The notes under the pieces were generated by a model. That model worked only from the letters and a program-made list of their open reading frames with translations. It did no database searches and was not told the origin of the DNA. A stretch of 64,000 nucleotides of DNA from Candidatus Uhrbacteria bacterium (GTDB lineage Bacteria; Patescibacteriota; Patescibacteriia; GWA2-47-26). Position numbers and translations under genes: made by a program. Numbering within the stretch: position 1 is the stretch's first letter; every line of letters starts with the position of its first letter. The stretch covers positions 228,778-292,777 of the forward strand of contig JACPJN010000007.1 in the NCBI GenBank assembly GCA_016187515.1, written 5' to 3'. Shown piece by piece: positions 1-35,760 of the stretch.

Positions 1-391
1 GAAATGTCTTTATTGCGCCCATAACTGTCTCAAAAGTAACGCGATGATCCGAATGAATATCGGATCGATTGGGAAGATAGATGGTTGTCGGTTGGACTTC
101 CTTCACCACTTTAGATACCGCGGCCATTAACTCCCGTCTCGGCACAGTATCAAGCATTGTAGTTGCATACTGCAGCGGAAATACCTTTTCAAAATGATAT
201 GCCTCTACCACTTTTTTAATCTCCTCCTCCCGTATGCTAATCTGCTCCGCGCTATAACCGACCACGGGCGACATCTTGGTCATTATCAACCAATACACCT
301 GATCCCCATGGCCCGCATGTTTTAAAAGTGTTCCTCCGCAACCAAGCGTTTCGTCGTCAGGATGAGGGGCTACTACGAGTATTGTGGCCAT
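1..391 (-). CDS. PIG-L/LmbE family deacetylase, N-terminal part only (gene runs off window start)
   Basis: Manual minus-strand translation from ATG at 391: MATILVVAPHPDDETLGCGGTLLKHAGHGDQVYWLIMTKMSPVVGYS... HPDDE and GCGG motifs of PIG-L/LmbE zinc deacetylases. Absent from ORF track because no stop lies inside the window. Confidence 0.6.
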   Translation of the reverse strand, partial: MATILVVAPHPDDETLGCGGTLLKHAGHGDQVYWLIMTKMSPVVGYSAEQISIREEEIKKVVEAYHFEKVFPLQYATTMLDTVPRRELMAAVSKVVKEVQPTTIYLPNRSDIHSDHRVTFETVMGAIKTF

Positions 392-404
392 ATAAGCGAT
401 TAAA

Positions 405-474
405 TCCCCCCTCTTTCCGCCCGAGGCGGATCCGCCTTGGGAGGAAAGGTAAGAGGGGTAGGGGGAGTTATGAG
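405..474. repeat. GC-rich palindromic element (family P), intergenic copy
   Basis: CCCCCCTCTTTCC...GGAAAGGTAAGAGGGGTAGGGGGAGTTATGAG. Shares the ...GGTAAGAGGGG(G)TAGGGGGAGTTATGAG tail with the copy at 19141..19226. Confidence 0.7.
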
Positions 475-1649
475 ATACCGACAAGATTCTTTTTAATTAG
501 CCATTGCTTATCGCTTAGATCTATTGATCGTAGCACATCTCTAATTTTTTCTGAAGTATAACCATTACCGAACGGATTTTTCAGTTCTGCCACTTTTGCC
601 CGATATTCTTCATCTGTGCATGCTTTGTGGATAGCCTGTGTGATACTTTGCAGATCATCCGGCACAAACTCAACATTTCCGGCATTTAATCGTCCCTGTT
701 GTCTATTTCCTACATTAACAACCGGAAGTTTATAAAATGGCGCCTCCAGAAGACCCATGCTGGAATTTCCAACAAGCGCTCTGGCGTGCCGCATAACATT
801 AACAAATATCTCCCGCTCAAGGTTTTTGTAAAATTTAATAAACGGCTTATCCTTATACGACTGAATCGCCTCTACAATGTCGTGCGCGCCCGGATCGGTA
901 TTGGGATGAATGGCCACTACTTTGTAGCCGGATTCTTTAGAGAATCTCTCCAGCGCTTGAAGATTAATATGCATTTGTCGTCCGGCATCCTGCCATTCTG
1001 AAGAAAGTGGATTTCGAATAAACACAACATAGTGTCCATCGGTAATATCAAATTTCAATATATTGCTTATCTCGCTTAAACTGCGCGCTGGGGTCGTCCG
1101 AATAGTATCTAAAGCCGGATCACCAACATTAAAAATCCGAAATTCTTCTTCACCAACCCGCTGCAAATTTTTTGCGTACGCGTCTGCCAGAGTAAAATGG
1201 ATGTGTGCCAATTTTGAAACCGCAAATCGTATGGGGTCGTCGGCATTCCCATATACCGGATCTCCTCCGCCAAGGTGCGCGACAGCGACATCCATATAAT
1301 TACCAACTAACGCGGCGGCGATACTCTCTTCTCTATCTCCGACCACAAAAATAACATCCGGCTTTTCTCTTTCCACTGTTTGCGCGAGCGCATAAGTCAA
1401 CATTCCAACCCCTTTGACGCGCTGGGTCGTCCGATTAGTCATTAACTGGCTATCGATTTTATCAACAACATGAAACCCGTCCGCTTCAATCTCCCGCAGA
1501 GTAAGTCCATGCCAGTCGGACAAATGCGCTCCGGAAACAACAACCCGAACGTCAAACTGCTCATCTTTCCGCAACGCATTAATGACTGGATATAGAATAT
1601 AATATTCGCTTCTGATGCCGGTTAACGCGAGAATTTTTTTTATTGCCAT
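468..1649 (-). CDS. UDP-N-acetylglucosamine 2-epimerase (NeuC/WecB family)
   Basis: 393 aa. ILALTGIRSEYYILYPV, DVRVVVSGAHLS and HLGGGD motifs of UDP-GlcNAc 2-epimerases. Lies in a cluster with a NeuB-type synthase. Confidence 0.85.
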   Translation of the reverse strand: MAIKKILALTGIRSEYYILYPVINALRKDEQFDVRVVVSGAHLSDWHGLTLREIEADGFHVVDKIDSQLMTNRTTQRVKGVGMLTYALAQTVEREKPDVIFVVGDREESIAAALVGNYMDVAVAHLGGGDPVYGNADDPIRFAVSKLAHIHFTLADAYAKNLQRVGEEEFRIFNVGDPALDTIRTTPARSLSEISNILKFDITDGHYVVFIRNPLSSEWQDAGRQMHINLQALERFSKESGYKVVAIHPNTDPGAHDIVEAIQSYKDKPFIKFYKNLEREIFVNVMRHARALVGNSSMGLLEAPFYKLPVVNVGNRQQGRLNAGNVEFVPDDLQSITQAIHKACTDEEYRAKVAELKNPFGNGYTSEKIRDVLRSIDLSDKQWLIKKNLVGIS

Positions 1650-2434
1650 AAATCATCTAATTCACTTTGATCCAATTCGGACTGGTCGGAAATGCCGCTC
1701 GGTATCTCTTGCGCACTCTCGGCGCCACTTTTTACGAGTTCTTCTCTTTGAATATTTCCTTCCATTAGAACTTCCAAACTCTTGCCGCCGCAATTGAATA
1801 GCAGATCGACAATGCTTAATTTCGAGACGAACTCTCCCCACTGTTGAGGATACTTTGGGTAATGATAGTCCTGAAAATACGGCTGGACGCCTGCGCCCTT
1901 GAAATCTTTTGTCTTGACATACCGCTTTCCAAACGCGCCAAAAATATAGGCATCGGCTCCAAGCTTTTTACACATATCCAGCACCAGCTCTGACCCTTTA
2001 CCCTCAAAATGCATTTCCGAGGCCTTAGAATACCTAACCTTGATATCAAGTTCTTTTAAAAACCAAAGTAGTATGTAGTCCGTCAGCTCTGAAAAATATT
2101 TCCAGTCGCGCTTATATACATCTTCAAAAAAATCAGCATAACTGCTCCAGAACGGAGCATGTTTGTAACTAACCATGAGCGACCTAAAATGTTTTGACCG
2201 CCAATCCGTTGAATTATCTATCTCCATCTGCCAGAGCTGTTTTTCTCTGTAACCGTGAGTTAATAGTGGTACCGTGAGAAAACAAGTCCCCTGCGCGGTT
2301 TTGATCGTATTTCTATTAAACCCGCGCCGCCGATACTGCGCAATATCGAAGGAACAAAACGCGTCGCTCAAAGCAATCTTGTGGAAAAACGCGAGCCAGG
2401 GAAGATAAGTTGGCTGATGCGCGGTAAGTATCAT
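1640..2434 (-). CDS. WbqC-like family protein (glycan-cluster protein of unknown function)
   Basis: 264 aa. N-terminus MILTAHQPTYLPWLAFFHKIA fits the WbqC-like family. Overlaps its neighbour by 10 nt (operon). C-terminal SELDQSELD direct repeat. Confidence 0.6.
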   Translation of the reverse strand: MILTAHQPTYLPWLAFFHKIALSDAFCSFDIAQYRRRGFNRNTIKTAQGTCFLTVPLLTHGYREKQLWQMEIDNSTDWRSKHFRSLMVSYKHAPFWSSYADFFEDVYKRDWKYFSELTDYILLWFLKELDIKVRYSKASEMHFEGKGSELVLDMCKKLGADAYIFGAFGKRYVKTKDFKGAGVQPYFQDYHYPKYPQQWGEFVSKLSIVDLLFNCGGKSLEVLMEGNIQREELVKSGAESAQEIPSGISDQSELDQSELDDLWQ

Positions 2435-3561
2435 AGTATTGCATCCTTAAACTGTCCGGCTATAAAGCGGGCTGCATCTTTACTAATCCCGAGATGAATC
2501 GGCAGGCAGATATGGCGCTGTGCCCGACTCTCCGCGTTTAGATATTGGCCGGCTTTTGTGCCATACATCCTCTGAAATGCCGGCTGAAGATGAATAAGCG
2601 GCTGATAAGGCCAGTCAATAACAATGTCTTTTTCTTTCATTCTTTCCCGCACCTTATCACGATTAACGCCGGATTGCAAGAATACAATAAACCGCCAGTA
2701 GGAATGCCGCACTGCATCTGGAAACTGCGAAAATGTAATCCGACCTTCTTTTTCAAACGAGCGCAATTCTTCTTGATATATTCGGGCAATCATATTGCGA
2801 TGCGCCACAAACTCATCCAGCCGTTTGAGCTGAAAGCGTCCTAAAATTCCTTGGAATTCCGTCATGCGCCGATTGCCGCCTATTTCTGAATACTGCTCAA
2901 GGGGCGCATCCACATCAATTCCGAGATGAATTAAACTACGGCACAGTTTCGCGACTGCCTCATTATTAGTCGTAATCATTCCGCCATCACCGGTGGTTAT
3001 TACTTTGGTAGAAAAAAAAGAAAAACATCCGGCGTCTCCGATCGCGCCGGCGCGCACGCCATTGATTTCCGCTCCGGACGCGTGCGCCGCGTCCTCAATC
3101 AATAATATATTACGCTCCTTAAGATAATCACGGATCGCAAAAATTTCTGGATGAATCAGTCCGGCAAAATGCACCATCACCACGGCTTTGGTCGCCGCGG
3201 TAATCTTTGCTTTCAAATCTTCAAACGAGAGAAGGAAATTATCATCCGTGTCGCAAAATATCGGACGGGCGCCAACCATAACCGCGCTTGAAGCGCTTGA
3301 AAAAAACGTCTGCACCGGAACAATTACCTCGTCTCCTGTTCCAATGCCATACGCACGCAACACGACTTCCAGCGCCGAGGTGCAAGAATTAGCAGCTACG
3401 GCATGCCGCACTCCGGTGTACGCGGCAAATTCCTTTTCAAATTCTTTTACCTGCGGGCCCTTGGTAAGCATTCCTTCGCCGGCAAGAATATTCTTGAATT
3501 CGCTTAAAATTCGTTCAATATCTTCTTTCGGGAAATAAGGAAACGCGGAATTATATTTCAT
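2431..3561 (-). CDS. DegT/DnrJ/EryC1/StrS family PLP-dependent sugar aminotransferase
   Basis: 376 aa. GDEVIVPVQTFFSSASSAV and FSFFSTKVITTGDGGMITTN segments typical of sugar-nucleotide aminotransferases (PseC/LegC/PglE-like). 4-nt overlaps on both sides. Confidence 0.85.
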   Translation of the reverse strand: MKYNSAFPYFPKEDIERILSEFKNILAGEGMLTKGPQVKEFEKEFAAYTGVRHAVAANSCTSALEVVLRAYGIGTGDEVIVPVQTFFSSASSAVMVGARPIFCDTDDNFLLSFEDLKAKITAATKAVVMVHFAGLIHPEIFAIRDYLKERNILLIEDAAHASGAEINGVRAGAIGDAGCFSFFSTKVITTGDGGMITTNNEAVAKLCRSLIHLGIDVDAPLEQYSEIGGNRRMTEFQGILGRFQLKRLDEFVAHRNMIARIYQEELRSFEKEGRITFSQFPDAVRHSYWRFIVFLQSGVNRDKVRERMKEKDIVIDWPYQPLIHLQPAFQRMYGTKAGQYLNAESRAQRHICLPIHLGISKDAARFIAGQFKDAIL

Positions 3562-4493
3562 ACAGGCGCGGGCATGCTCTCAATATATTTTTTTATGCCA
3601 TCTTCTAAAGTCATCGGACTAAAACCTAACCGCTGTTTTATTTTTCCAATATTCATATTTACATCCCAAGGAGGGGAAGATGGCTTGTCAATCAATACCA
3701 CCTTGGATGATGAATGTAAATAATCTCTTACATATTCTGCGATCCTGGCCATCGGCAAAGAATTGGCGCTTCCAACAAGAAATATCTCAAACGGCGTGAG
3801 AATCTCCTTTTTCTCGGCAACTCTGCACAGTGCGTCAATCGCGTCGTCAACATAAAGCGCGTTGCGAAGCGTCTCGCCACGACCGTAGACCTCAATCGGC
3901 TTTGCTTCTTTAGCCAGCTGATAGTAGGTATAGATCATCCCGCCCAAATGATTACGGCCGAAAAGCGATGGAAAACGCACTACCGTTGCCTGCACATTCG
4001 TTCGCTGCAGTTCAATCTCAATCAGCCGTTCGGCAATATATTTTGTAAGACCGTAATAATTGCTGGGGACAGCAGGCACATCTTCACTAAGCTCCTTATC
4101 AAAAACACCGCATACGGCAATGGTTGAGACATAAATGAGCTGACTGGCGGATTGTTTGGCTAGTGTGATGACATTACGCGTGGTTGAAACATTGCCTTTG
4201 TAAAAATCGTCAAAACTAAGTGCGGGCGAAGATGGCTGCTGGGCGGCAAGGTGAAAAATGGTCTCAATCTTATACTCTGAAAGCGCGGCGGTAACGTCTT
4301 GTGTGAGGTCGAGTTTACGCAAAATAAATTGGGGATCTTTTACTGCCCTAGCTGATAAAAATCCTTGGTCGCGCCGGCCAATGCCAATCACCCGCTTGCC
4401 ACGATCAAGAAGCGCCCCCGTAAGCGCGCTCCCTAAAAATCCGGTTGCTCCTGTAACCAGATATGTTTGCATACTAACTTGATTTTCTCGCAT
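3558..4493 (-). CDS. NAD-dependent epimerase/dehydratase (SDR) family protein
   Basis: 311 aa. Rossmann motif LVTGATGFLGSAL. True start may be the internal Met MQTYLV at 4472. Confidence 0.75.
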   Translation of the reverse strand: MRENQVSMQTYLVTGATGFLGSALTGALLDRGKRVIGIGRRDQGFLSARAVKDPQFILRKLDLTQDVTAALSEYKIETIFHLAAQQPSSPALSFDDFYKGNVSTTRNVITLAKQSASQLIYVSTIAVCGVFDKELSEDVPAVPSNYYGLTKYIAERLIEIELQRTNVQATVVRFPSLFGRNHLGGMIYTYYQLAKEAKPIEVYGRGETLRNALYVDDAIDALCRVAEKKEILTPFEIFLVGSANSLPMARIAEYVRDYLHSSSKVVLIDKPSSPPWDVNMNIGKIKQRLGFSPMTLEDGIKKYIESMPAPV

Positions 4494-5340
4494 TAATCAC
4501 AAGCGCGAACCCTGCCCATTGTCCAATCGCGCGCTCAAAACTGCTGGGGAGTATGACATCGGCGTCTCCTAAATGCACTCTGTGCCGTTTCCATACATGA
4601 TAAATTCCCGGAAACAGATCAGGCCAGTGAAAAGAATGTTTGCGCAAACTTACAATTTGAAATTTATTAAACAGCTGTTTCATCTGCCGGCCGGAATACA
4701 CTTTCGTCATTGGGTTTAATCTTTCTTCCTTTGTATGCCAAGCCAGTTCAGTAGTGTGCCCGAGCCAGTTGCGGCCATGCCGAAAAATTCCGCCGAGAAT
4801 AATTCCGCGCACCAAAAGTAAACTCACCAGATACTGAAAAGACCACTTTGCGTAGAGCATGACGACCGCATGTCCGCCCGGTTTGAGCACGCGATGTATT
4901 TCATCCACTGCCTTTTGAGTATTGGGCGTATGATGCAAAACGCCACTTGAAAACACTATATCAAAACTATTATCGGGAAACGGTAAATTCTCCGCGTCGG
5001 CCTGTACCGCGTTTCCGGCAAGACCGAGTAGTTCAAATTTCGCTTTAGTAATAGCGACCGCCTCATCCGTTAAATCCGAAGCGGTTACCTGCGCCCCATC
5101 CAGCGCAAAAATTATACTGCTCGTTCCTGCTCCGCAACCGACCTCTAACACTGTCTTATCACGCAGTCCGATATCCTTCATCTCGCGCACCTGTTCACTT
5201 TCTTGCATTTCCAGGAGCATCCGGATTGCGCCAAGTTCTTGAAGGTATCGCTCTTTGGTTTTAGTACTTCCATCATCTCGTCCGCGCTTTTCCCATCCTT
5301 TACCCCAAAATTCCTTCATTTCTTGTTTGAATGTATTCAT
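4474..5340 (-). CDS. class I SAM-dependent methyltransferase
   Basis: 288 aa. SAM-binding motif VLEVGCGAGTSS and DIVFSSGVLHH. Confidence 0.75.
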   Translation of the reverse strand: MNTFKQEMKEFWGKGWEKRGRDDGSTKTKERYLQELGAIRMLLEMQESEQVREMKDIGLRDKTVLEVGCGAGTSSIIFALDGAQVTASDLTDEAVAITKAKFELLGLAGNAVQADAENLPFPDNSFDIVFSSGVLHHTPNTQKAVDEIHRVLKPGGHAVVMLYAKWSFQYLVSLLLVRGIILGGIFRHGRNWLGHTTELAWHTKEERLNPMTKVYSGRQMKQLFNKFQIVSLRKHSFHWPDLFPGIYHVWKRHRVHLGDADVILPSSFERAIGQWAGFALVINARKSS

Positions 5341-5346
5341 ACCCGC

Positions 5347-5622
5347 CTAAGTTTTTGCACTTAATAAGTAGTGCTTTAATGCTTTATGCATATATCGGCG
5401 ACCCCAGCCAGTCTTAAAAAATTTCTCCCTTTGTTCGGCATCTTTTCGATGGGGATAAGCTTCATAGTAAATAAGCATAAATGGGGTGCGTGTTTTAGTG
5501 GCAAACGATAGTTTAGCATTATGTTCTCGTATTCTTTTCCGTAAATTATCCGTACATCCTATGTAGAATTTACCATCTTTGAGACTTCGTAGAATATACA
5601 CATACGAGAACATACGGTGCAA
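5347..5622 (-). CDS. GIY-YIG nuclease family small protein
   Basis: 91 aa. YVYILRSLKDGKFYIGCTDNLRKRIREHN is the GIY-YIG motif. Embedded inside the sugar operon. Confidence 0.7.
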   Translation of the reverse strand: MHRMFSYVYILRSLKDGKFYIGCTDNLRKRIREHNAKLSFATKTRTPFMLIYYEAYPHRKDAEQREKFFKTGWGRRYMHKALKHYLLSAKT

Positions 5623-5626
5623 AAAT

Positions 5627-7012: not shown

Positions 7013-7018
7013 TTCAAT

Positions 7019-8017: not shown

Positions 8018-8091
8018 AGATTTTACATTGTACTCCCTTCTAAACAAAAAGCAAGGGGGTATGCTCGTCAGAACAATACCCCATGGAACCG

Positions 8092-9093
8092 CTATACCTC
8101 GATCAATTCGTCAGCCCGGAAATCCCGCCTGGACTTTTGCCCAAGCACCCGATCCCACTGCATCGCGCTTATCCCGCTTCCCGGACGCTTGGTGGTCAGA
8201 TTATCTTCACTAAACATTTCGCCAGCGGCAATGTCGCGGGAAGCCACGATACTTTTACGACCAACTGCTTTAAGTACCAGCTCGCGCTCGGTCGGACGCT
8301 TTACTCCATCACCAAGTGCGGATTCCACATTGCGAATCGCGGCCACCATGGCGCTAAGTTCATCGGGTTCAAGCGAGGCCTTGTGATCCGGGCCCGGCAT
8401 ATTGCGATCCAGTGTAAAGTGTTTTTCAATCACGCTCGCGCCGAGCGCCACTGCCGCAATCGGAATCTCAATGCCTGGGGTGTGATCCGAGTAACCCACC
8501 TTAACACCTAAGGCGTCGCGCATAGTTAGCATCGCGCGCAAATTTACATCTTGCATTTGAGTCGGATAATCCGTATGGCAATGGAGCACTGTGATTTTCC
8601 CTTTTGGTGTGCCTGCCTGCACGAGCACATTTAGCGCCGCCTCCACTTCGTCCATGTTTGCCATACCGGTTGACATAATCACCTCACGTCCAAGCCCACC
8701 GATTTTGCGCAGAAGGGGAAGATTAGTAATTTCGCCAGAAGCAATCTTAAACACCGACATCCCAAGTCCTGCGAGAAAATCCACACTCTCCAGATCAAAC
8801 GGTGTGGACATAAACATGATGCCGGTCTGCGCGCAGTACGCAACAAGTTCGCGATGCGCTTCCGCGGACAACTCCAGTGCGCGCAACATCTCTGCCTGCG
8901 ATTCGTTCGTGCCGGTATTTTCTATCTGATACCCGGCTTTTACTGCGCTGGCTATTACCAACTGGTCCGCGCGGAAGGTCTGAAATTTCACCGCATCAGC
9001 GCCCGCGTCAACCGCCGCATCAACCAATTTTTTGGCAATTTCAAGATCGCCATTATGATTTACTCCGGCCTCGGCAATGATAAAGGTATGCAT
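8092..9093 (-). CDS. N-acetylneuraminate synthase family (NeuB/LegI/PseI) nonulosonic acid synthase
   Basis: ORF 8092..9138. Probable start MHTFIIAEAGVNHNGDLEIAKKLVDAAVDAGADAVKFQTF, the NeuB TIM-barrel N-terminus. C-terminal SAF domain (KRPGSGISAMQWDRVLG). Confidence 0.9.
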   Translation of the reverse strand: MHTFIIAEAGVNHNGDLEIAKKLVDAAVDAGADAVKFQTFRADQLVIASAVKAGYQIENTGTNESQAEMLRALELSAEAHRELVAYCAQTGIMFMSTPFDLESVDFLAGLGMSVFKIASGEITNLPLLRKIGGLGREVIMSTGMANMDEVEAALNVLVQAGTPKGKITVLHCHTDYPTQMQDVNLRAMLTMRDALGVKVGYSDHTPGIEIPIAAVALGASVIEKHFTLDRNMPGPDHKASLEPDELSAMVAAIRNVESALGDGVKRPTERELVLKAVGRKSIVASRDIAAGEMFSEDNLTTKRPGSGISAMQWDRVLGQKSRRDFRADELIEV

Positions 9094-9149
9094 AATAGAT
9101 GACCAGTATATCAGAAGCAAACGCGCGCGGCAAGGCACTGATCATCAAA

Positions 9150-9186
9150 GAAAAAAGTCCTACCCCGGATGGCCGGAAATAGGACT
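9150..9186 (-). terminator. rho-independent terminator of the GC-islet gene
   Basis: Minus-strand reads AGTCCTATTTCCGGCCATCCGGGGTAGGACT followed by TTTTTT. 7-bp stem AGTCCTA/TAGGACT. Confidence 0.55.
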
Positions 9187-9230
9187 GCTGACCTGGATCA
9201 GCTAGGAAAAAGGTTCATCGAGCAGAGGGA

Positions 9231-10229
9231 CTACAGGGTCTGGAGCAGGCGCGCCGCCACGGCCATCGGCACTCCGCCATCCACCCCGGTCCAGCTCGTC
9301 ACCTCGGTCAAGACCGCGCGGGCCTCGTCCGTTCTGCCGAGCGACTTGAGCGCCCGGGCCTTGTGGAGCTTGAGCGAGAGCACCACGTTGGCAAACGAGG
9401 TCAGGGTTACCTCCGGAGCAACGAGCGCCGCGTCCGCCGCCGCGATCTGCGTTTCCGGATCGGCGATCTCGGAGACCTGGAACAGCCGCTTCCAGCTAGC
9501 GTACGCCGTCGGGAAGGTACCGCTCCGCAGCTCGTTCCGATCGTCCTCGCGTTCGAGGTAGTCCCGCTCGGCCAAGAGGTGCGCGAACCAGATGTGCCAG
9601 GTCGCGTTCTCCTGCATCCAGAGCGGGTACTTCTCGGTCGTGGCGCGCACAAGCTCCCGCATCTGCCGCAGGTGGGCGAGCTGTACCGCGATCTCCGGGG
9701 AGCTGTCGCGCGTGATGGAGTCGGAGGTGTACTCGACCGCGACCAGGAAAAGGCCAACCGGCGCCTTCTCCTGCCGTCCGGCCGCCATGAAGTAGTTGGC
9801 CGAGGCGAGCTGGGAGTTTCCGGCCTCGCGGTAATGCCGCAAACCGCGAAGCACGATCCCGAGGTTGTAGCAGACGCTCGCTCCCAGCAGGTACTTGAAC
9901 TGACCGGACGGGAGATCCTGGATCAGGTCGTCCCTGATCCGGGCGTACGCCGTGGCTACGGTGTTGTGATCCGCGGCGTTGGGCGGGCGTCGGCGGCCAT
10001 TCCACTCCTCGACCCGGCAGGCGAGCCGCATTGCCGGATCGGTCGTGCGGTTGGAGGCGAGCTCAAACAGGTGGGCGTAGCGGGCCGGATCTTGCGGCGC
10101 GCCGTTTCTGCCGGAAAGCAAATCGCCCACCGGATGACCCATGAAGAAGTCCGCTCCCAACGGCTCGGCGACCAACCTGGCCGCGAGCGCTTCGTCAGAT
10201 GCTGTCCAATCCCAGGGTGTCGAATCCAT
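9231..10229 (-). CDS. hypothetical protein encoded on a GC-rich islet
   Basis: 332 aa minus-strand ORF with balanced composition. Local GC far above flanking genes. Overlapping plus-strand ORFs (9363..10277 and others) are Arg-rich antisense artefacts. Own hairpin + T-run terminator downstream (9150..9186). Confidence 0.5.
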   Translation of the reverse strand: MDSTPWDWTASDEALAARLVAEPLGADFFMGHPVGDLLSGRNGAPQDPARYAHLFELASNRTTDPAMRLACRVEEWNGRRRPPNAADHNTVATAYARIRDDLIQDLPSGQFKYLLGASVCYNLGIVLRGLRHYREAGNSQLASANYFMAAGRQEKAPVGLFLVAVEYTSDSITRDSSPEIAVQLAHLRQMRELVRATTEKYPLWMQENATWHIWFAHLLAERDYLEREDDRNELRSGTFPTAYASWKRLFQVSEIADPETQIAAADAALVAPEVTLTSFANVVLSLKLHKARALKSLGRTDEARAVLTEVTSWTGVDGGVPMAVAARLLQTL

Positions 10230-10335
10230 TGTTGCTTCTCCTCTTGTTTATCTGCCGGTTGCCTTGCCAACCGGTAGATATGATGGAACACTCTTGCACA
10301 AGGTACCTTATATATAACATGGCGGCTTAAAAATG

Positions 10336-10980
10336 TCAAGGCCGCATTTGTAAAATTTTCCTGGCCGGTATACCAACATAGGTACCCGGCTCCAGACAAT
10401 CTTTGGTTACTGCCGCGCCGGCGCCGACAGTACAATGGTCGCCAATAGTTTTATATTGCACCACTGTTGCGCCTACACCTATAAGAGAATGCGAGCCGAC
10501 TTTAACGCCGCCTGAAAAAGTTACCCCCGGCGCAATATGGGTAAAATCTCCGATCACGCAATCATGATCAATGGAAGCACGGGTGTTAATAATCGCGTAA
10601 CGCCCAATGCGCGTACCGGAATTGATGACCACCCCATCCATAACTACGGTACCCTCACCAATTTGTACATCTTCATTCACGACCGCAGTCGGCGATACAA
10701 TCGCCGGCATGGTAAACCCCAACCCGCGCAGTTTCTCAACCAGCCGCTCGCGTAAATCATCTTTGCCTAAATATCCCAGGCCGAGCACTGCCGCACACTC
10801 ACCATGCCGCGCTTTAATATCATGAAGAACATCATCAGTTCCAATATATGGCAAGTAAAGTAGTGGCCCTTGATTCTCGCGGTCGGTATAGCCAAGAATT
10901 TCAAAGGTGTTGAGTTTTTTCAGGATGCTGGTTACAACTTTCGCATGACCGCCACCGCCAATGACGACAATTTTCTGCAT
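10336..10980 (-). CDS. hexapeptide-repeat sugar acetyltransferase (NeuD/PglD-like)
   Basis: ORF 10336..11037. Probable start MQKIVVIGGGGHAKVV at 10980. C-terminal left-handed beta-helix repeats (IGDFTHIAPGVTFSGGVKVGSHSLIGVGATVV). Confidence 0.8.
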   Translation of the reverse strand: MQKIVVIGGGGHAKVVTSILKKLNTFEILGYTDRENQGPLLYLPYIGTDDVLHDIKARHGECAAVLGLGYLGKDDLRERLVEKLRGLGFTMPAIVSPTAVVNEDVQIGEGTVVMDGVVINSGTRIGRYAIINTRASIDHDCVIGDFTHIAPGVTFSGGVKVGSHSLIGVGATVVQYKTIGDHCTVGAGAAVTKDCLEPGTYVGIPARKILQMRP

Positions 10981-10987
10981 ACAATGG

Positions 10988-12151
10988 TTATGAAAAATAA
11001 TTCTTAATCGCGCCTGCCACTGTTTCAATCTGATCATTCGTGATATTCACACTGCAGGGAATATTCAGACATGTCTGCCAGGCATGCAGTGCGTGTGGTG
11101 TGGACTCACCGTAAACATTGCCGCCCTTATACATCGGCAATTCGTGAATTAGATTCCAAATCGGCCGCGCTTGAATCCCTTGGTCGATAAGATATTGCAT
11201 AAGCGGCTCTTTCGCGTTCGGATCAACTTGAATGGTGGAAAGCCAATAGTTGCTCTTGGCCCAAGAGGCCTCCTGCAAAACCTTCAGCTTCCCGCCGATA
11301 CCGGCAAAAAGTTCGCGGTAGCGCGCAGCAATTTCGCGTTTGCGTGTAACATACTCCTCCAATTTTTCCAGTTGGGCCACTCCGAGCGCGGCCTGGATAT
11401 TGGTCAGCCGATAATTGTAGCCGATCTCGTCATGGTCGTAGCGTAGCGGATCTTTTTTTGCTTGCGTACTCAAATGCCGTACACGTGCGGCCCACTCACC
11501 GTTATTTGTTACCAACATGCCTCCGCCGCCAGTAGTAATAATTTTATTGCCGTTAAACGATAGGCATCCGATATTGCCAAGCGCGCCGGCCTTTTTTCCT
11601 TTATATTCCGATCCCAAACTCTCGGTCGCGTCTTCAATCACGCATACCTTATACTGCCGACAAACTTCCATAAGCGCGTCCATGTCCGCCGGGTGTCCCA
11701 AAGCATTAACCGGAATTACCGCGCCGACGCGCTGTCCGGTCTTTTTATAGTAGGCCATCCCATCACCGCGTCTCTCGCATTCACGGCTTAAAAACTGCGC
11801 GATTTGATTTACATCCAAACAAAGCGTTTCCGGATCACAATCAAAAAATACCGGATATGCTCCGACATAACGCACGGTATTAACCGGAGCGATAAAAGTC
11901 AGGGTCGGCACTAGCACGATATCATCCTTTTTGACACCCGCGATAATAAGCGACAGGTGAAGCGCGGCAGTGCCGTTTACCACGGCCACGCCGTGCGCGA
12001 CCCCGAGATACTTGGCCATCTCCTCTTCAAAGCGATTAACAAAACTACCGACCGAAGAAACCCAGCCGGTATCTAGACACTCTTTTATGTAGCGCCACTC
12101 ATTTCCGGCGAGCACTGGTTCAGCAAGCGGTATCATATCGTCAATCGTCAT
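10988..12151 (-). CDS. DegT/DnrJ/EryC1/StrS family sugar aminotransferase (second copy)
   Basis: 387 aa. LAEPVLAGNEWRYIKECLDTGWVSSVGSFV and LSFNGNKIITTGGGGMLVTN segments; PLP-enzyme architecture of LegC/PglE-like aminotransferases. Confidence 0.85.
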   Translation of the reverse strand: MTIDDMIPLAEPVLAGNEWRYIKECLDTGWVSSVGSFVNRFEEEMAKYLGVAHGVAVVNGTAALHLSLIIAGVKKDDIVLVPTLTFIAPVNTVRYVGAYPVFFDCDPETLCLDVNQIAQFLSRECERRGDGMAYYKKTGQRVGAVIPVNALGHPADMDALMEVCRQYKVCVIEDATESLGSEYKGKKAGALGNIGCLSFNGNKIITTGGGGMLVTNNGEWAARVRHLSTQAKKDPLRYDHDEIGYNYRLTNIQAALGVAQLEKLEEYVTRKREIAARYRELFAGIGGKLKVLQEASWAKSNYWLSTIQVDPNAKEPLMQYLIDQGIQARPIWNLIHELPMYKGGNVYGESTPHALHAWQTCLNIPCSVNITNDQIETVAGAIKNYFS

Positions 12152-12187
12152 TCCCGCGGAAGCGGGAATCCAGTCAATACTTAATGC

Positions 12188-13021
12188 TCAATAGGATCTC
12201 AAATCCAAAAGATAGTGATTGGTCTCATGGAGTTTAAACCCGACTTTTTGATACAAACTATTGGCCGCGACGCGTTTGGGATTGGTCGTCAGCTCTACCA
12301 TCTCCACCCCTTGCGCTTTGGCCCAGCGTAAAAGATCATGGAGAATCTTTTCGCCTAGTCCTTTGCCGCGCTGTGCCGGATCAACAATCATATCCTCAAC
12401 TACGGCCTGCCGGCGGAGCATCGTTTGCCGCGGAAAAATCCAACCCATACCCATCAACTTATCGCCTTCGTAGACCATACTCACATACCCGTCCAGCATG
12501 GCTTTATAAAGCGACTGCTCGTCAACAACCGCAGTCGGATCGAGTTGAGCGACTAACTCGCGTACGCGGACGACATCATAATTAAAATGTTTTTTAAGAT
12601 AAGTCAGAATGTCCTGATTAGAATCAAACGCGATCGTGTTAAGTTCTTTAAGCGGGACCCAAGCCAGCTCGGAGTTTTCATGATTAAGCCGCGGCTCGCC
12701 CTGCAGTTCTGCCAGATAGGCAAAACTCAAAACTGGATATTTATGATCCTTATAAGAAGCCGTACCCGGAAACGCGCCAATAAGCGTCTCCGAGCGCACC
12801 CCGACACCCAACTCTTCCTTCAGCTCGCGGCGAAGCGCCTGCTCTGGAGTTTCTCCTTTATGCAAATACCCGCCTAAAAAATCCCACTGATCCTTAAAGG
12901 GCTCTTCGTTGCGTTTGGCCACGAGAATTTTACCGTCGCGTATTACAATGGCCGTGGCTGTCGGTTTTGGGTTTTCAAACGCGCAAAGTTCGCATGTGGT
13001 ATTGTCCATATCTACAAACAC
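12188..13021 (-). CDS. NUDIX hydrolase - GNAT acetyltransferase fusion protein
   Basis: 277 aa. N-terminal half has the NUDIX box GGYLHKGETPEQALRRELKEELGV. C-terminal half has the GNAT acetyl-CoA motif QRGKGLGEKILHDLLRWAKAQG. Start may be MDNTT at 13009, avoiding overlap with the upstream gene. Confidence 0.75.
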   Translation of the reverse strand: MFVDMDNTTCELCAFENPKPTATAIVIRDGKILVAKRNEEPFKDQWDFLGGYLHKGETPEQALRRELKEELGVGVRSETLIGAFPGTASYKDHKYPVLSFAYLAELQGEPRLNHENSELAWVPLKELNTIAFDSNQDILTYLKKHFNYDVVRVRELVAQLDPTAVVDEQSLYKAMLDGYVSMVYEGDKLMGMGWIFPRQTMLRRQAVVEDMIVDPAQRGKGLGEKILHDLLRWAKAQGVEMVELTTNPKRVAANSLYQKVGFKLHETNHYLLDLRSY

Positions 13022-14337
13022 TTATAGATAATGCTGTGCTTCAGCGTGTCGGACGCTTGCACAACAGGTAAAAACCAACTCTTCACATCCATAAGCACTC
13101 CTTTACCGTTGCCATTTCCATTATAGTATTGGATGAGATTTTCAAGTTTCATGTCCTTAAACTGTCGGTGCAATGTTGCAAGAATAATGCCGTCCACTTT
13201 TCCAATCTTTTCAAGATCAGCCACATATTCCACGCCGAACTTTTCTACCTCTTCTTGGTAAAGATTTGGATCATACGCCAAGGGTCGAACACCATATGAT
13301 TTTAGTTTCTTGATTGTATCTCCGATCTTTGAATTACGTGTATCACGAATGTCTTCTTTAAATGTAAGGCCCATGACCAAGACACGCGCGCCTTGCACAA
13401 CTTTACCGGCTTCCACCAGTCCTCGTATAGTGAGATCTGCCACATACTCCGGCATCCAGTCATTAATGCGCCGGCCAGCCAGAATTACTTCCGGATTATA
13501 GCCAAGCTCTTGCGCTTTGTGGGTCAGATAATACGGATCGACTGAAATGCAATGTCCCCCAACGAGCCCTGGCTGATATTTATGAAAATTCCATTTCGTG
13601 CCCGCTGCTTCAATGACATCACGAGTATTGATTCCAAGGCGGTGAAAAATGATCGAGAGTTCGTTCACCAGCGCGATATTCAAATCGCGTTGGGTATTTT
13701 CAATGACTTTTTCAGCTTCCGCCGTCTTGATATTGGGTGTTTTATGCACACCACCTTTGCAAATCTCGCCATACACCGCAGCAACCAATTCAAGCGTCTC
13801 GGTATCCATTCCGGACACCACCTTAACCGTGGTTTCAATCGTATGTTCTTTATCACCAGGATTCGTGCGTTCTGGAGAATATCCCACTTTAAAATCCGCT
13901 CCGCACTTCAACTCAGAATGTTTCTCAATGAGTGACGCGCAAACCTCTTCCGTAACTCCCGGATACACGGTGGACTCATAAACCACCACTGTTCCGGGCT
14001 TCAGATATTTTCCAATGGTTTCCGAGGCCTCAATTACGGGCGACAAATCCGGGGTTTTGGCCTGCGTAATCGGAGTCGGCACCGTAACAATGATAAAATT
14101 CGCGCGCGAAAGCACGCTCGGGTCAGGCGTATACTCCACCTTTGCTGCGGCCATTTCTTCATCGGTAATTTCACCGTTCGGATCATGGCCGGCTTTAAGC
14201 GAGTCAATCCGCGCTTGACTCTTATTCAATCCGATCACCGGCGCAAATCGGCTTTTCCCAAACGCCACCGCCAAAGGCAGTCCCACATAGCCCAACCCCA
14301 CCACTGCAATTTTTATATCTTCAAGTTTTGGTAACAT
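13012..14337 (-). CDS. UDP-N-acetyl-D-mannosamine/glucosamine dehydrogenase (UDP-glucose/GDP-mannose dehydrogenase family, WecC/WbpA/TviB-like)
   Basis: 441 aa. N-terminal IAVVGLGYVGLPLAVAF Rossmann fold and catalytic-Cys region GGHCISVDPYYL. Confidence 0.8.
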   Translation of the reverse strand: MLPKLEDIKIAVVGLGYVGLPLAVAFGKSRFAPVIGLNKSQARIDSLKAGHDPNGEITDEEMAAAKVEYTPDPSVLSRANFIIVTVPTPITQAKTPDLSPVIEASETIGKYLKPGTVVVYESTVYPGVTEEVCASLIEKHSELKCGADFKVGYSPERTNPGDKEHTIETTVKVVSGMDTETLELVAAVYGEICKGGVHKTPNIKTAEAEKVIENTQRDLNIALVNELSIIFHRLGINTRDVIEAAGTKWNFHKYQPGLVGGHCISVDPYYLTHKAQELGYNPEVILAGRRINDWMPEYVADLTIRGLVEAGKVVQGARVLVMGLTFKEDIRDTRNSKIGDTIKKLKSYGVRPLAYDPNLYQEEVEKFGVEYVADLEKIGKVDGIILATLHRQFKDMKLENLIQYYNGNGNGKGVLMDVKSWFLPVVQASDTLKHSIIYKCL

Positions 14338-15917: not shown

Positions 15918-15962
15918 AGTAAATAGTGAAGAAAATAATCCTAACAAATTATATGCCGAGCG

Positions 15963-16736: not shown

Positions 16737-17335
16737 AGGGCAAGCAATTCGTTAACCAGCTGATCTAAACGCTTGGAGTGGAACTGCTTAACATATTTTT
16801 TAATCCGGGCGCGGTTTAAGGTGGTACTCATGGTTTCGTAATCAAACCGCATTCCCTCCAGGTCGTCGCGAGTCCGTATCGCGCGCGGGTTGAGATAAAA
16901 ATAATCCAGCAATGCTTTTTCAGGGTGCGCAAACAAATACTTACCATGCTTTGTCTCTATATCCCCATATCCCCAAAAAAGTTTGGGTACAATAGTACGG
17001 TAGCTAAACCTGCCAAATTGGTTCGCGATCGTCCGCGTTGGCCGCGTGGTTACCGAAGTGCACACTGCCACCATCTCTGGAATAAACCCATAGTGATGCA
17101 GCGCGTACTCTAAACTAATATAACTTGGTTCATACAGCAGAAACGCGACCTCCTCCGGTATCACCTCTTTCTTACGCGCGGTAAAGACAAAAATCCCGCG
17201 CTGAATTTTTTCAATATCACCCATGCCCTGCCAGCGCGAAAGTTGGTAATCCGGCACCTGGAGATTCCGAATACGCAATTCTGTCCTTGTAAAATAGGGC
17301 TTTTCTATGATTTTAGTAAATTCTCTATATTTCAT
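16715..17335 (-). CDS. type IV toxin-antitoxin system AbiEi family antitoxin
   Basis: 206 aa. Sits immediately upstream of and overlapping the AbiEii gene. N-terminal wHTH-like region (FTRTELRIRNLQVPDYQLSRW), the usual AbiEi architecture. Confidence 0.65.
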   Translation of the reverse strand: MKYREFTKIIEKPYFTRTELRIRNLQVPDYQLSRWQGMGDIEKIQRGIFVFTARKKEVIPEEVAFLLYEPSYISLEYALHHYGFIPEMVAVCTSVTTRPTRTIANQFGRFSYRTIVPKLFWGYGDIETKHGKYLFAHPEKALLDYFYLNPRAIRTRDDLEGMRFDYETMSTTLNRARIKKYVKQFHSKRLDQLVNELLALCSPSRS

Positions 17336-35750: not shown

Positions 35751-35760
35751 TCCAAAATTT

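What the first reader, a model, noticed from the sequence alone, without database searches (positions are those of the whole stretch)
1..14337. Nonulosonic-acid type glycan operon with no recognisable CMP-transferase, an embedded GIY-YIG gene and a 461-aa unknown protein
A 14-kb minus-strand operon with 4- to 10-nt gene overlaps encodes NeuC/WecB-type epimerase, WbqC-like protein, two DegT aminotransferases, two SDR dehydratase/epimerases, a methyltransferase, a NeuB/LegI/PseI-type synthase, a NeuD-type acetyltransferase and a UDP-HexNAc dehydrogenase. This is the toolkit for sialic/legionaminic/pseudaminic-acid-like sugars on a surface glycan or pilin. No cytidylyltransferase (NeuA-like CMP-sugar synthetase) is recognisable. 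A GIY-YIG nuclease gene (5347-5622) and a GC-rich ORFan (9231-10229) are inserted mid-operon. The 461-aa protein (5627-7012) is a candidate novel transferase or activating enzyme.
Basis: partly seen in the sequence, partly recalled or inferred. Interest (0 to 1): 0.5.

Follow-up and report, generated by a model that had tools for sequence, protein, structure and literature searches.

The report
Legionaminic-acid operon carrying two hitchhikers
This is an ordinary, complete gene set for making and attaching the sialic-acid-like sugar legionaminic acid in a tiny uncultured Uhrbacteria bacterium. The "missing" activating enzyme lies about 1.4 kb outside the window, and the most unusual feature is a 294-bp mobile element carrying the small nuclease gene, inserted exactly at a gene's start codon.

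Summary
The gene list is essentially right, but the headline claim is a window-edge artefact. A public contig that is 100% identical to window 1-11649 continues past base 1. It carries, in the same overlapping operon, a PIG-L deacetylase, a CBS+nucleotidyltransferase (PtmE-like) and a NeuA-type CMP-sugar synthetase (E 1e-40 to solved CMP-Neu5Ac synthetases). LegB, LegC, NeuB, NeuC and NeuD pass curated family cut-offs, so this is a conventional CMP-legionaminic-acid pathway in a Candidatus Uhrbacteria genome.

The "461-aa unknown" (really 459 aa) is not an activating enzyme. It has a GT-B fold closest to CMP/CDP-binding TagF-like enzymes. It matches the Tannerella Pse/Leg-transferase family weakly. 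In 7 of 7 other lineages examined its homologues lie within a few kb of NeuB and/or NeuA homologues (both in six). It is most likely the legionaminic-acid transferase.

Both "embedded" genes are real insertions, absent at those positions from relatives. The GC-rich gene is a self-contained 1.27-kb cassette encoding a TPR protein from a small family. The GIY-YIG gene sits in a 294-bp element with 19-20-bp terminal inverted repeats and a TATG duplication. Full and ORF-less copies of this element sit exactly at start codons of unrelated genes across Patescibacteria metagenomes.

The parts
1..391 (-). 5' part of a PIG-L/LmbE-type deacetylase gene that runs off the window. The operon continues beyond base 1.
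   Evidence: The translation reads MATILVVAPHPDDETLGCGG.... The full gene carries PF02585 on L001 11259-11927.
468..1649 (-). NeuC/LegG-type hydrolysing NDP-sugar 2-epimerase.
   Evidence: PF02350 E 5e-70. TIGR03568 scores 358 bits against a cut-off of 236.
1640..2434 (-). WbqC-family protein. It is possibly the PtmG-like amidotransferase that makes the acetamidino form; this is inferred, not tested.
   Evidence: PF08889 E 5e-67. The PtmG function comes from PMC3766260 and the SugarBase preprint. The WbqC=PtmG link is from memory only.
2431..3561 (-). Second DegT-family aminotransferase; specificity unknown.
   Evidence: PF01041 E 2.5e-101. It falls below the PseC and LegC cut-offs.
3558..4472 (-). 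Second extended-SDR epimerase/reductase; specificity unknown.
   Evidence: PF01370 E 3.5e-38. The gene is called as 304 aa.
4474..5340 (-). SAM-dependent methyltransferase. It is a conserved partner of the GT-B gene, and its start codon is the regenerated ATG of the element's TATG duplication.
   Evidence: PF08241 E 3.6e-28. It lies next to the GT-B homologue in L018, L019 and L069.
5342..5635 (-). 294-bp mobile element. Its 19-20-nt terminal inverted repeats lie at 5617-5636 and 5341-5360. It is flanked by TACG (5636-5639) and TATG (5338-5341). Its left end supplies the last three codons and the stop codon of the upstream GT-B gene.
   Evidence: Both repeats were found in the window, with 0.2 matches expected by chance. 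The ends are conserved in unrelated contexts. Empty sites are seen in L068 and L069.
5347..5613 (-). 88-aa stand-alone GIY-YIG nuclease gene carried by the element.
   Evidence: PF01541 scores 62.9 bits against a cut-off of 22.6. Y6, G19, R27 and E63 are invariant and Y17 and H31 nearly invariant across 38 homologues. The gene is absent from the sister genome.
5627..7006 (-). 459-aa GT-B-fold enzyme, the proposed CMP-legionaminic-acid transferase.
7019..8017 (-). LegB, NDP-GlcNAc 4,6-dehydratase.
   Evidence: TIGR04180 scores 496 bits against a cut-off of 475.
8092..9093 (-). NeuB/LegI-type nonulosonic acid synthase.
   Evidence: PF03102 E 7e-102 plus a SAF domain. TIGR03569 scores 511 bits against a cut-off of 400.
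9095..10363 (-). 1.27-kb GC-rich insertion cassette. It contains a promoter-like site, a 5' hairpin, the ORF, hairpins followed by a T-run, and an outward promoter-like site facing NeuB.
   Evidence: It is absent from L018, where LegH and NeuB overlap by 4 nt. The sequence is shown. TTGCCG-17-TATACT lies at 9133-9105. No terminal repeats were found.
9231..10229 (-).
10336..10980 (-). LegH-type (NeuD/PglD) N-acetyltransferase.
   Evidence: TIGR03570 scores 217.5 bits against a cut-off of 160.8; PglD_N and Hexapep domains are present.
10988..12151 (-). LegC aminotransferase.
   Evidence: TIGR04181 scores 483 bits against a cut-off of 420.
12188..13021 (-).
   Evidence: PF00293 E 1e-22 and PF00583 E 1e-15. 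It is conserved in L018 and L069.
13012..14337 (-). TviB-like UDP-GlcNAc 6-dehydrogenase. It may supply a HexNAc-uronic acid acceptor sugar (inferred).
   Evidence: All three UDPG_MGDP_dh domains are present. TIGR03026 scores 387 bits against a cut-off of 190.

Best explanation
The region is the larger part of a conventional operon for CMP-legionaminic acid and its transfer, in a Candidatus Uhrbacteria (Patescibacteria/CPR) genome. The window edge cuts the operon.

The predicted route is as follows. A PtmE-like CBS-nucleotidyltransferase, outside the window, makes NDP-GlcN(Ac). LegB (7019-8017) dehydrates it, LegC (10988-12151) aminates it, and the NeuD/PglD-type LegH (10336-10980) acetylates it. 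The NeuC-type LegG (468-1649) removes the nucleotide and epimerises C2. NeuB/LegI (8092-9093) condenses the product with PEP. A NeuA-type LegF, about 1.4 kb outside the window, makes the CMP-sugar.

WbqC, the methyltransferase, the second DegT and SDR, the PIG-L deacetylase and the NUDIX-GNAT fusion probably tailor the sugar or make an accompanying sugar. The TviB-like dehydrogenase may supply a HexNAc-uronic acid acceptor.

The 459-aa protein is a peripheral-membrane GT-B enzyme that takes CMP-Leg and transfers it to the growing glycan. A PglK/MsbA-type ABC exporter encoded downstream would then export that glycan.

Two passengers interrupt the operon without breaking it. The first is a 1.27-kb GC-rich cassette encoding a TPR protein. 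It has its own promoter-like and terminator-like signals, plus an outward promoter-like site in front of NeuB. The second is a 294-bp inverted-repeat element carrying an 88-aa GIY-YIG nuclease. It inserted at the TATG that contains the methyltransferase start codon. Its left end provides a stop codon for the upstream reading frame, and its right end regenerates TATG for the resident gene.

What is shown: gene identities, the presence of NeuA, both insertions, and the element's architecture and spread. What is inferred: sugar stereochemistry, donor and acceptor of the GT-B enzyme, the roles of the tailoring genes, and whether the nuclease moves the element.
For: The operon continues beyond the window. 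L001 matches window 1-11649 at 100% identity. It carries PIG-L, CBS+NTP_transferase, CTP_transf_3, a 249-aa unknown, an ABC exporter and an NTP_transferase, with 4-8 nt overlaps.

The 234-aa protein matches solved CMP-Neu5Ac synthetases over its full length: 6ifd at 3.9e-40 and 1eyr at 1e-39. It matches the PseF model at 2e-55.

Curated cut-offs are passed by LegB, NeuB and NeuC and by LegC and NeuD.

The sister Uhrbacteria contig L018 is syntenic at 72-81% DNA identity and also has the PtmE-like and NeuA genes.

For the insertions, see composition, absence in relatives and the element analysis.

Against: The NeuA-like protein scores just under the PseF cut-off, 188 against 206, and no LegF-specific model was available.

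Leg stereochemistry cannot be read from sequence. The extra DegT, SDR and NUDIX-GNAT genes could mean a different or a second product.

The flanking genes come from a metagenome contig, not from the window itself.

The promoter-like and terminator-like sites in the cassette are consensus matches only. The count of promoter-like sites in the region is not above the shuffled expectation.
Confidence: 0.72

Rival explanations
1. One reading: the pathway truly lacks a CMP-sugar synthetase, and the 461-aa protein is a novel activating enzyme.
For: No cytidylyltransferase domain occurs in any ORF of window 1-20753. The 461-aa protein has no Pfam family.
Against: A NeuA-type gene sits about 1.4 kb beyond window base 1 in the same operon, and also in the sister genome. 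The 461-aa protein has a GT-B fold, not a nucleotidyltransferase fold. Its homologues sit beside their own NeuA genes.
Confidence: 0.02
2. The 459-aa GT-B protein is not a nonulosonic-acid transferase. It would instead be a TagF/TagB-like polyol-phosphate transferase using a CDP-alcohol, or an NDP-sugar epimerase/hydrolase acting inside the pathway.
Against: There is no Pfam Glyphos_transf or Epimerase_2 hit. The operon already has a NeuC that passes its cut-off. Linkage with NeuB and NeuA is conserved across Gammaproteobacteria, Solibacteraceae, Oligoflexales and metagenome lineages. The only family-level sequence matches are to the 'surface carbohydrate biosynthesis' model and the Tannerella NulO-transferase model.
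Confidence: 0.2
3. The product is not legionaminic acid but another nonulosonate (a Pse-, Aci-, 8eLeg- or 4eLeg-type, or Neu5Ac), or there are two different products.
For: NeuB and NeuC match generic Neu-type models. The NeuA's best model is PseF. A second DegT scores best against PseC (250 bits). A second SDR and a NUDIX+GNAT pair, which could mimic the PseG+PseH chemistry, are also present.
Against: LegB and LegC pass equivalog-level cut-offs, while PseB, PseC and PseI score far below theirs. A PtmE-like CBS-nucleotidyltransferase is present, as in the Campylobacter GDP-dependent Leg route (the route is from established knowledge). There is only one NeuB and one NeuA.
Confidence: 0.15
4. The GIY-YIG gene is a free-standing homing endonuclease that spreads by double-strand-break repair between homologous operons. 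On this reading it is not part of a transposon-like element, and the inverted repeats are incidental.
For: GIY-YIG enzymes are classical homing endonucleases. The gene sits precisely between two conserved genes, and relatives have empty sites. The catalytic residues are conserved.
Against: The same 19-20-nt inverted ends flank the gene in unrelated genomic contexts. ORF-less copies of 64-135 bp with the same ends lie in front of many unrelated genes. The flanks show a 4-bp TATG duplication. The protein has only 88 aa and no DNA-binding domain. [quoted passage not shown]
Confidence: 0.15

Closest known systems
Campylobacter jejuni legionaminic acid pathway (PtmE, LegB, LegC, LegH, LegG, LegI, LegF, plus PtmG/PtmH tailoring)
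   Same: A candidate for every enzyme of the route is present: a CBS-nucleotidyltransferase, LegB, LegC, a NeuD/PglD acetyltransferase, a NeuC-type epimerase, NeuB and a NeuA-type synthetase. A methyltransferase and a WbqC-family gene sit between the core genes, as ptmG and ptmH do in C. jejuni.
   Different: The host is a CPR bacterium with no flagellar glycosylation island or Maf proteins in the window. Extra DegT, SDR, PIG-L and NUDIX-GNAT genes are present. The WbqC=PtmG equivalence was not tested here. The nucleotide (GDP or UDP) is unknown.
Tannerella forsythia Pse/Leg-derivative transferases Tanf_01245 / TFUB4_00887 (BFO_1060 family, NF046086)
   Same: The 459-aa protein matches the family model over residues 7-293 at E 7.7e-15. 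Both are predicted to be GT-B/TagB-like, and both are encoded beside NulO biosynthesis genes. In Tannerella the acceptor is ManNAcA, and here a UDP-GlcNAc 6-dehydrogenase is co-encoded.
   Different: The score of 55 bits is far below the 200-bit cut-off. The C-terminal roughly 170 residues are not covered. No experiment exists for this clade.
TagF / TarL / Bcs3 TagF-like GT-B polymerases (CDP-donor, CMP-releasing)
   Different: Sequence identity is only 12-14%, and there is no Pfam Glyphos_transf match. The linked donor-synthesis genes are NeuB and NeuA, not CDP-glycerol or CDP-ribitol synthases.
Bacterial MITEs such as Neisseria Correia elements, and REP/RAYT systems (from general knowledge)
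   Same: These are short elements bounded by inverted repeats. They form long hairpins, carry a short target duplication, sit beside genes in many unrelated places, and exist as ORF-less copies alongside ORF-bearing copies.
   Different: The only ORF here is an 88-aa GIY-YIG nuclease, not a DDE or Y1 transposase. The duplicated target is TATG, and in 19 of 22 copies it contains a gene's start codon. The element supplies a stop codon on its left and regenerates the start codon on its right.
RRNPP-type TPR receptors (NprR, Rap, AimR, PlcR) and MalT domain III
   Different: Sequence identity is 7-9%. There is no HTH domain, no Pfam TPR hit above cut-off, no adjacent pro-peptide gene (sequence read directly) and no PADLOC hit. 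TPR solenoids match each other generically.

Membership tests
Legionaminic acid biosynthesis pathway | LegB-type NDP-GlcNAc 4,6-dehydratase | tested here: met
   TIGR04180 scores 496.4 bits against a cut-off of 475 for 7019-8047.
Legionaminic acid biosynthesis pathway | LegC-type aminotransferase | tested here: met
   TIGR04181 scores 483.2 bits against a cut-off of 420 for 10988-12151.
Legionaminic acid biosynthesis pathway | N-acetyltransferase of the NeuD/PglD type (LegH) | tested here: met
   TIGR03570 scores 217.5 bits against a cut-off of 160.8; a PglD_N domain is present.
Legionaminic acid biosynthesis pathway | Hydrolysing 2-epimerase (LegG/NeuC) and PEP-condensing synthase (LegI/NeuB) | tested here: met
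   TIGR03568 scores 358 against 236, and TIGR03569 scores 510.6 against 399.65. These models do not separate Leg-specific from Neu-specific enzymes.
Legionaminic acid biosynthesis pathway | CMP-nonulosonate synthetase (LegF/NeuA) | tested here: met
   The gene is outside the window at L001 13005-13709. It carries PF02348 and matches 6ifd at 3.9e-40 and 1eyr at 1e-39. Its PseF-model score of 187.7 is just under the 205.7 cut-off. L001 is identical to the window over 11,649 bp.
Legionaminic acid biosynthesis pathway | Product has D-glycero-D-galacto (Leg) stereochemistry | not testable with these tools
   This requires mass spectrometry or NMR of the sugar.
TIGR04396 surface carbohydrate biosynthesis protein | Score above the curated cut-off | tested here: not met
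   The score is 76.3 bits against a cut-off of 125, with E 2.5e-21 over residues 7-377. Some homologues are given this name by JGI.
BFO_1060 family glycosyltransferase (NF046086; Tannerella Pse/Leg transferases) | Score above the curated cut-off | tested here: not met
   The score is 54.9 bits against a cut-off of 200, with E 7.7e-15 over residues 7-293. The relationship is distant, not membership.
BFO_1060 family glycosyltransferase (NF046086; Tannerella Pse/Leg transferases) | Encoded with CMP-nonulosonate biosynthesis genes | tested here: met
   This holds here and in 7 of 7 other lineages examined. NeuB and NeuA homologues are both nearby in six; L019 has Leg-pathway genes only.
BFO_1060 family glycosyltransferase (NF046086; Tannerella Pse/Leg transferases) | Transfers Pse or Leg from the CMP-sugar to a glycan | not testable with these tools
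   This needs an enzyme assay or a knock-out. The Tannerella evidence is in PMC5420450.
TagF-like glycerophosphotransferases (Pfam Glyphos_transf) | Sequence match to the family model | tested here: not met
   No Pfam family matches at E<=0.01.
TagF-like glycerophosphotransferases (Pfam Glyphos_transf) | GT-B two-Rossmann fold resembling TagF | tested here: met
GIY-YIG nuclease superfamily | Domain match and catalytic Tyr, Tyr, Arg, His and Glu residues | tested here: met
   PF01541 scores 62.9 against 22.6. Y6, G19, R27 and E63 are invariant, and Y17 and H31 are at least 90% conserved, in 38 sequences.
Transposon-like / MITE-type mobile element | Terminal inverted repeats | tested here: met
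   The two ends match at 18 of 20 positions in the window. Exact 19-nt inverted pairs occur in 24 fetched loci from other assemblies, which hold 22 distinct elements with both ends including the window's own.
Transposon-like / MITE-type mobile element | Target-site duplication and an empty site in relatives | tested here: met
   TAT|G lies to the left and TATG to the right in about 19 of 22 elements. Relatives L068 and L069 have a single TATG at the methyltransferase start.
Transposon-like / MITE-type mobile element | Copies in unrelated genomic contexts, including non-autonomous copies | tested here: met
   The downstream genes include a methyltransferase, a cupin, DivIC, an Epimerase_2 protein, a radical SAM protein, GlmS, aldolase, S17, L29 and CofD. 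Fifteen copies are shorter than 180 bp and lack an intact ORF.
Transposon-like / MITE-type mobile element | Encoded enzyme catalyses the element's movement | not testable with these tools
   No transposase-family domain is present. Whether the 88-aa GIY-YIG nuclease moves the element is unknown.
RRNPP peptide-sensing receptors | TPR receptor with an adjacent secreted pro-peptide gene, and usually an HTH or phosphatase module | tested here: not met

The most novel reading that the evidence does not exclude
The 294-bp unit around the GIY-YIG gene represents an undescribed kind of bacterial mobile element. It is a minimal inverted-repeat element whose only gene is an 88-aa GIY-YIG nuclease, and it has many ORF-less miniature derivatives in Patescibacteria. 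It inserts at TATG sites that contain a gene's start codon. On its left it terminates the incoming reading frame (ATG CCC GCC TAA). It borrows the host gene's translation signals for its own ORF. On its right it hands a regenerated TATG start back to the host gene. If the nuclease is the mobilising enzyme, this would be a transposition-like system built on a GIY-YIG domain rather than on a DDE, serine, tyrosine or HUH enzyme.
Probability: 0.35. Interest if true: 0.7.

Novelty: new member of a known kind. Interest (0 to 1): 0.4.

Why it matters
For the finding as written, the value is mainly corrective. The pathway is conventional, and the apparent gap came from the window edge.

Three things remain useful.

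1. A complete legionaminic-acid pathway with its own transferase and exporter is conserved in at least two Uhrbacteria genomes. I found no paper in the searchable library that links nonulosonic acids to CPR/Patescibacteria. Surface sugars of these epibiotic or ultra-small cells could matter for host attachment and phage evasion.

2. Nonulosonic-acid transferases are poorly known. This clade of GT-B proteins, tightly linked to NeuA and NeuB across phyla, offers concrete candidates to test.

3. The GIY-YIG element shows how a tiny selfish gene can sit inside a tight operon without polarity. It may define a new mobile-element type that targets start codons.

Tried and rejected
- **Cytidylyltransferase inside the window.** Pfam and NCBIfam scans of all 20 ORFs in 1-20753 found none. 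It turned up only on the flanking contig.
- **Profile search of the GT-B family against PDB sequences.** It returned only a marginal KpsC hit at E 0.35. This is suggestive of a shared C-terminal nucleotide-binding motif but was not used as evidence.
- **Foldseek against the PDB.** It gave generic GT-B and epimerase hits with TM about 0.45-0.5, so it could not separate transferase from epimerase.
- **PADLOC.** There was no hit for the TPR protein and only noise for the GIY-YIG protein, so a defence-system reading was dropped.
- **RRNPP quorum-sensing reading of the TPR protein.** Rejected: there is no HTH domain and no adjacent peptide gene.
- **Terminal repeats or a target duplication around the GC-rich cassette.** None were found.
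- **Rfam.** No family matched the element. Only sub-threshold microRNA-hairpin hits appeared, which reflect the long stem.
- **A gene-specific leader RNA as an explanation for the short elements.** Rejected because the downstream genes are unrelated.
- **The TIR-like match at 35842-35857.** It overlaps the 3' end of a tRNA-Leu gene and has two mismatches, so it is treated as chance.
- **WbqC = PtmG.** I could not verify this. No paper in the library links the two names, and I had no Cj1324 sequence to compare.
- **Literature on nonulosonic acids in CPR.** The searches returned nothing relevant.

Full report
**1. What is in the window**

ORF listing shows an unbroken file of minus-strand genes from 14337 down to base 1, with overlaps of 4-10 nt or gaps of a few bases. 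Pfam and NCBIfam identify them as follows.
- 13012-14337: a TviB-like UDP-GlcNAc 6-dehydrogenase.
- 10988-12151: LegC (TIGR04181, 483 bits against a cut-off of 420).
- 10336-10980: a NeuD/PglD acetyltransferase (TIGR03570, 217 against 161).
- 9231-10229: a 332-aa protein with no family.
- 8092-9093: NeuB (TIGR03569, 511 against 400).
- 7019-8017: LegB (TIGR04180, 496 against 475).
- 5627-7006: a 459-aa protein with no Pfam family.
- 5347-5613: an 88-aa GIY-YIG protein.
- 4474-5340: a methyltransferase.
- 3558-4472: an SDR.
- 2431-3561: a second DegT.
- 1640-2434: WbqC.
- 468-1649: NeuC (TIGR03568, 358 against 236).

Translating window 1-469 on the minus strand gives the N-terminus of a PIG-L/LmbE deacetylase, MATILVVAPHPDDETLGCGG.... 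The operon is therefore cut by the window edge.

**2. The missing cytidylyltransferase**

Looking up the NeuC protein in public assemblies returned contigs from a series of related runs. The longest, L001, is 100% identical to window 1-11649 over all 11,649 bases and extends 8.5 kb beyond window base 1. On the same strand, and with 4-8 nt overlaps, it carries:
- the rest of the PIG-L gene;
- a CBS+NTP_transferase protein of 362 aa (PtmE-like);
- a 234-aa CTP_transf_3 protein;
- a 249-aa unknown;
- a PglK/MsbA-like ABC exporter;
- a further nucleotidyltransferase.

The 234-aa protein aligns end to end with solved CMP-Neu5Ac synthetases, 6ifd at 3.9e-40 and 1eyr at 1e-39. It matches the PseF model at 2e-55, at 188 bits just under the 206-bit cut-off. 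With a PtmE-like enzyme, LegB, LegC, LegH, LegG, LegI and a NeuA-type synthetase all present, the route matches the legionaminic-acid pathway known from Campylobacter. That route is established knowledge, and the gene names are as listed in the SugarBase preprint.

**3. Organism and conservation**

The 332-aa and 88-aa proteins are identical to NCBI proteins from 'Candidatus Uhrbacteria bacterium'. A second Uhrbacteria MAG (MGDU01000021, locus L018) is syntenic at 72-81% nucleotide identity across the whole operon. It also has the PtmE-like and CTP_transf_3 genes. The rest of the window looks like a CPR genome: FtsH, RNase Y, a PilB-type ATPase and an intein-containing IF-2. Three literature searches pairing nonulosonic, legionaminic or sialic acid with Patescibacteria, the candidate phyla radiation or Parcubacteria found nothing relevant.

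**4. The 459-aa protein**

It has 42 homologues in the 5.8-billion-protein set, and several are labelled 'surface carbohydrate biosynthesis protein'. NCBIfam gives two sub-threshold but significant matches. One is TIGR04396, at E 2.5e-21 and 76 bits against a cut-off of 125. The other is NF046086, 'BFO_1060 family glycosyltransferase', at E 7.7e-15 and 55 bits against 200.

BFO_1060, Tanf_01245 and TFUB4_00887 are the Tannerella forsythia proteins whose knock-outs lose the terminal Pse or Leg derivative from the S-layer O-glycan. They are described as GT-B/TagB-like and transfer onto a ManNAcA residue (PMC5420450).

Gene neighbourhood is the strongest argument. I examined seven independent lineages at 43-53% identity: two Gammaproteobacteria MAGs, a Solibacteraceae MAG, an Oligoflexales MAG and three unnamed metagenome contigs. 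In six of them the homologue lies within a few kb of both NeuB and NeuA homologues, and NeuA is the adjacent gene in several. The seventh, the short contig L019, shows LegB, NeuC-like and PtmE-like genes instead, with the same LegB-GT-methyltransferase order as here. An NDP-sugar dehydrogenase is also a frequent neighbour. Together with the TviB-like gene here, this parallels the uronic-acid acceptor in Tannerella; that parallel is an inference.

I conclude that it is most likely the CMP-legionaminic-acid transferase (about 0.6). The main rival is another cytidine-nucleotide-dependent GT-B activity. It is not an activating enzyme.

**5. The GC-rich gene**

In the annotated frame GC1/GC2/GC3 are 0.66/0.48/0.86, against a GC3 of 0.40-0.55 in the neighbours. 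That is the signature of a real coding sequence from a high-GC donor.

In L018 the acetyltransferase and NeuB genes overlap by 4 nt, and homology to the window breaks at about 10364 and resumes at 9094. Window 9095-10363 is therefore a 1.27-kb insertion.

Reading the sequence directly, the cassette contains:
- TTGACA-17-TATATA overlapping the acetyltransferase stop codon;
- a 13-bp-stem hairpin (z -2.9);
- a GAGGAG ribosome-binding site;
- the ORF;
- two hairpins followed by a T-run;
- TTGCCG-17-TATACT with an upstream TG, just ahead of the NeuB ATG.

These are consensus matches only. I found no terminal repeats.

The protein is not a true orphan. An exhaustive search found 48 cluster representatives of about 330 aa. 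A 60%-identical copy lies next to an S-adenosylhomocysteine hydrolase gene that is 82% identical to the window's own, that is, in a different slot of a related genome.

**6. The GIY-YIG gene**

The 88-aa protein passes the Pfam cut-off. It keeps the catalytic Tyr6, Tyr17, Arg27, His31 and Glu63 across 38 homologues, all from Patescibacteria where named. Its GC content is 36%.

The junctions are informative. The upstream GT-B gene ends ...TGT ACG CCC GCC TAA. Thirteen nt later comes the GIY-YIG ATG. The ORF ends ...AAA ACT TAG GCGGGT ATG, and that ATG is the methyltransferase start.

The two ends are inverted repeats: GCCCGCCTAAATTTTTGCAC at 5636-5617 and ACCCGCCTAAGTTTTTGCAC at 5341-5360 on the other strand. 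Three matches to the 16-nt repeat pattern were found in the window against 0.2 expected by chance, two of them these ends.

Homologues at 78-83% identity lie in quite different contexts, before a cupin gene and before a DivIC gene. They have the same ends and the same 6-nt spacing to the next start codon.

A metagenome scan with the left repeat returned 41 loci. Together with the window and the two homologue loci these hold 22 distinct elements with both ends.
- Six are 291-295 bp. Five of these carry an intact 87-88-aa ORF, and in the sixth (L036) the ORF is disrupted.
- Fifteen are 64-173 bp and ORF-less. One more, of 200 bp, keeps only an ORF remnant. Some of these are visibly deletion derivatives that keep the ORF's last codons.
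- All fold into a long terminal stem.

In 19 of 22 the right end is followed by TATG, and the left end is preceded by TAT (or TAC), so the flanks read as a 4-bp TATG duplication. In 17 of those 19 the ATG opens an ORF of 62-607 aa; the other two reach the contig end.

Those ORFs are unrelated genes whose Pfam matches begin at the profile start. They include aldolase, GlmS, ribosomal proteins S17 and L29, CofD, a radical SAM protein, an Epimerase_2 protein and a metal-binding membrane protein.

Empty sites exist in closer relatives of the GT-B gene. L068 (84% identity) reads TTTTGC TATG ATT, and L069 (69% identity) reads AAAG TATG ATT. In both, that single TATG holds the methyltransferase start. 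In both, the GT-B protein ends ...FCYD or ...LCWE rather than ...FCTPA. The sister genome L018 keeps the left repeat and the leader but has lost the ORF.

No Rfam family matches. The library has no paper on bacterial GIY-YIG genes in MITE-like elements. [quoted passage not shown]

The gene is therefore the cargo of a small mobile element that sits at start codons and preserves both neighbouring reading frames. Whether the nuclease drives its movement, and whether the start-codon preference reflects targeting or survivorship, remains open.

**7. Other variable cargo**

Relative to L018, the window also carries an AbiEi/AbiEii pair plus a 278-aa gene upstream of the SAH hydrolase. L018 in turn carries an IS30-like transposase and a TylF-type methyltransferase between the operon's methyltransferase and SDR genes. 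The locus is therefore a hot spot for insertions that leave the core pathway intact.

**8. Verdict**

The central interpretation, a pathway without CMP activation, is refuted. The transferase idea for the 459-aa protein is supported but unproven. As a glycan operon this is a new member of a known kind, in an unusual host. The side finding on the GIY-YIG element is the part that deserves follow-up.

Noticed in passing
window 56055-59651 (+): The translation initiation factor IF-2 gene (1198 aa) is interrupted in its GTPase domain by an intein with a LAGLIDADG homing-endonuclease domain.
   Followed up: no
window 15963-17335 (-), and about 15918-18542: An AbiEii/AbiEi toxin-antitoxin (abortive-infection) pair and a 278-aa membrane-like protein lie just upstream of the SAH hydrolase and glycan operon. 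This block is absent from the sister Uhrbacteria contig L018.
   Followed up: partly
L018 12279-14080: The sister genome has different cargo in the same operon: an IS30-like transposase (HTH_38+rve, opposite strand) and a TylF-type methyltransferase between the methyltransferase and SDR genes.
   Followed up: partly
L016 280-1275 and 1357-2487: A 60%-identical copy of the TPR 'ORFan' sits directly upstream of an SAH hydrolase gene that is 82% identical to the window's. The gene therefore occupies different slots in related genomes.
   Followed up: partly
window 12188-13021 (-): A NUDIX hydrolase + GNAT acetyltransferase fusion is conserved in this operon in L018 and L069. It could combine nucleotide-sugar hydrolysis with N-acetylation, analogous to PseG+PseH, but its role is unknown.
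   Followed up: no
L001 13723-14472 and L009 4333-5181 / 6896-7972: A roughly 250-aa protein with no Pfam or NCBIfam family recurs next to the ABC exporter and the GT-B gene in distant lineages. It may be another unrecognised component of the glycan machinery.
   Followed up: no
window 22043-23428 (-): An ATPase_2 + DUF234 protein matches the PADLOC candidate defence family PDC-S27 at E 1e-47.
   Followed up: no
window 32615-35788 (-) and 35760-35845 (+): A 1057-aa protein has four lamin-tail domains plus an OB fold. A tRNA-Leu(tag) gene lies just upstream, and its 3' end overlaps a 2-mismatch match to the element's repeat, which is probably chance.
   Followed up: partly
L048, L052, L034, L027 (short elements): One subfamily of ORF-less elements shares an internal hairpin (CGTTCCGC...GCGGAACG), a conserved stretch GCAAATGATAGGCGAGCATAA that reads as a mini-ORF (MIGEHK...), and a sub-terminal second copy of TTTTTGCAC. 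The meaning of these features is unknown.
   Followed up: partly
upstream flanks of elements in L027-L067: Many insertion sites have -10-like boxes (TATAAT, GATAAGAT) only 7-12 nt before the TATG. This suggests the targeted genes may be leaderless or have very short leaders. The reading was made by eye and was not tested statistically.
   Followed up: no
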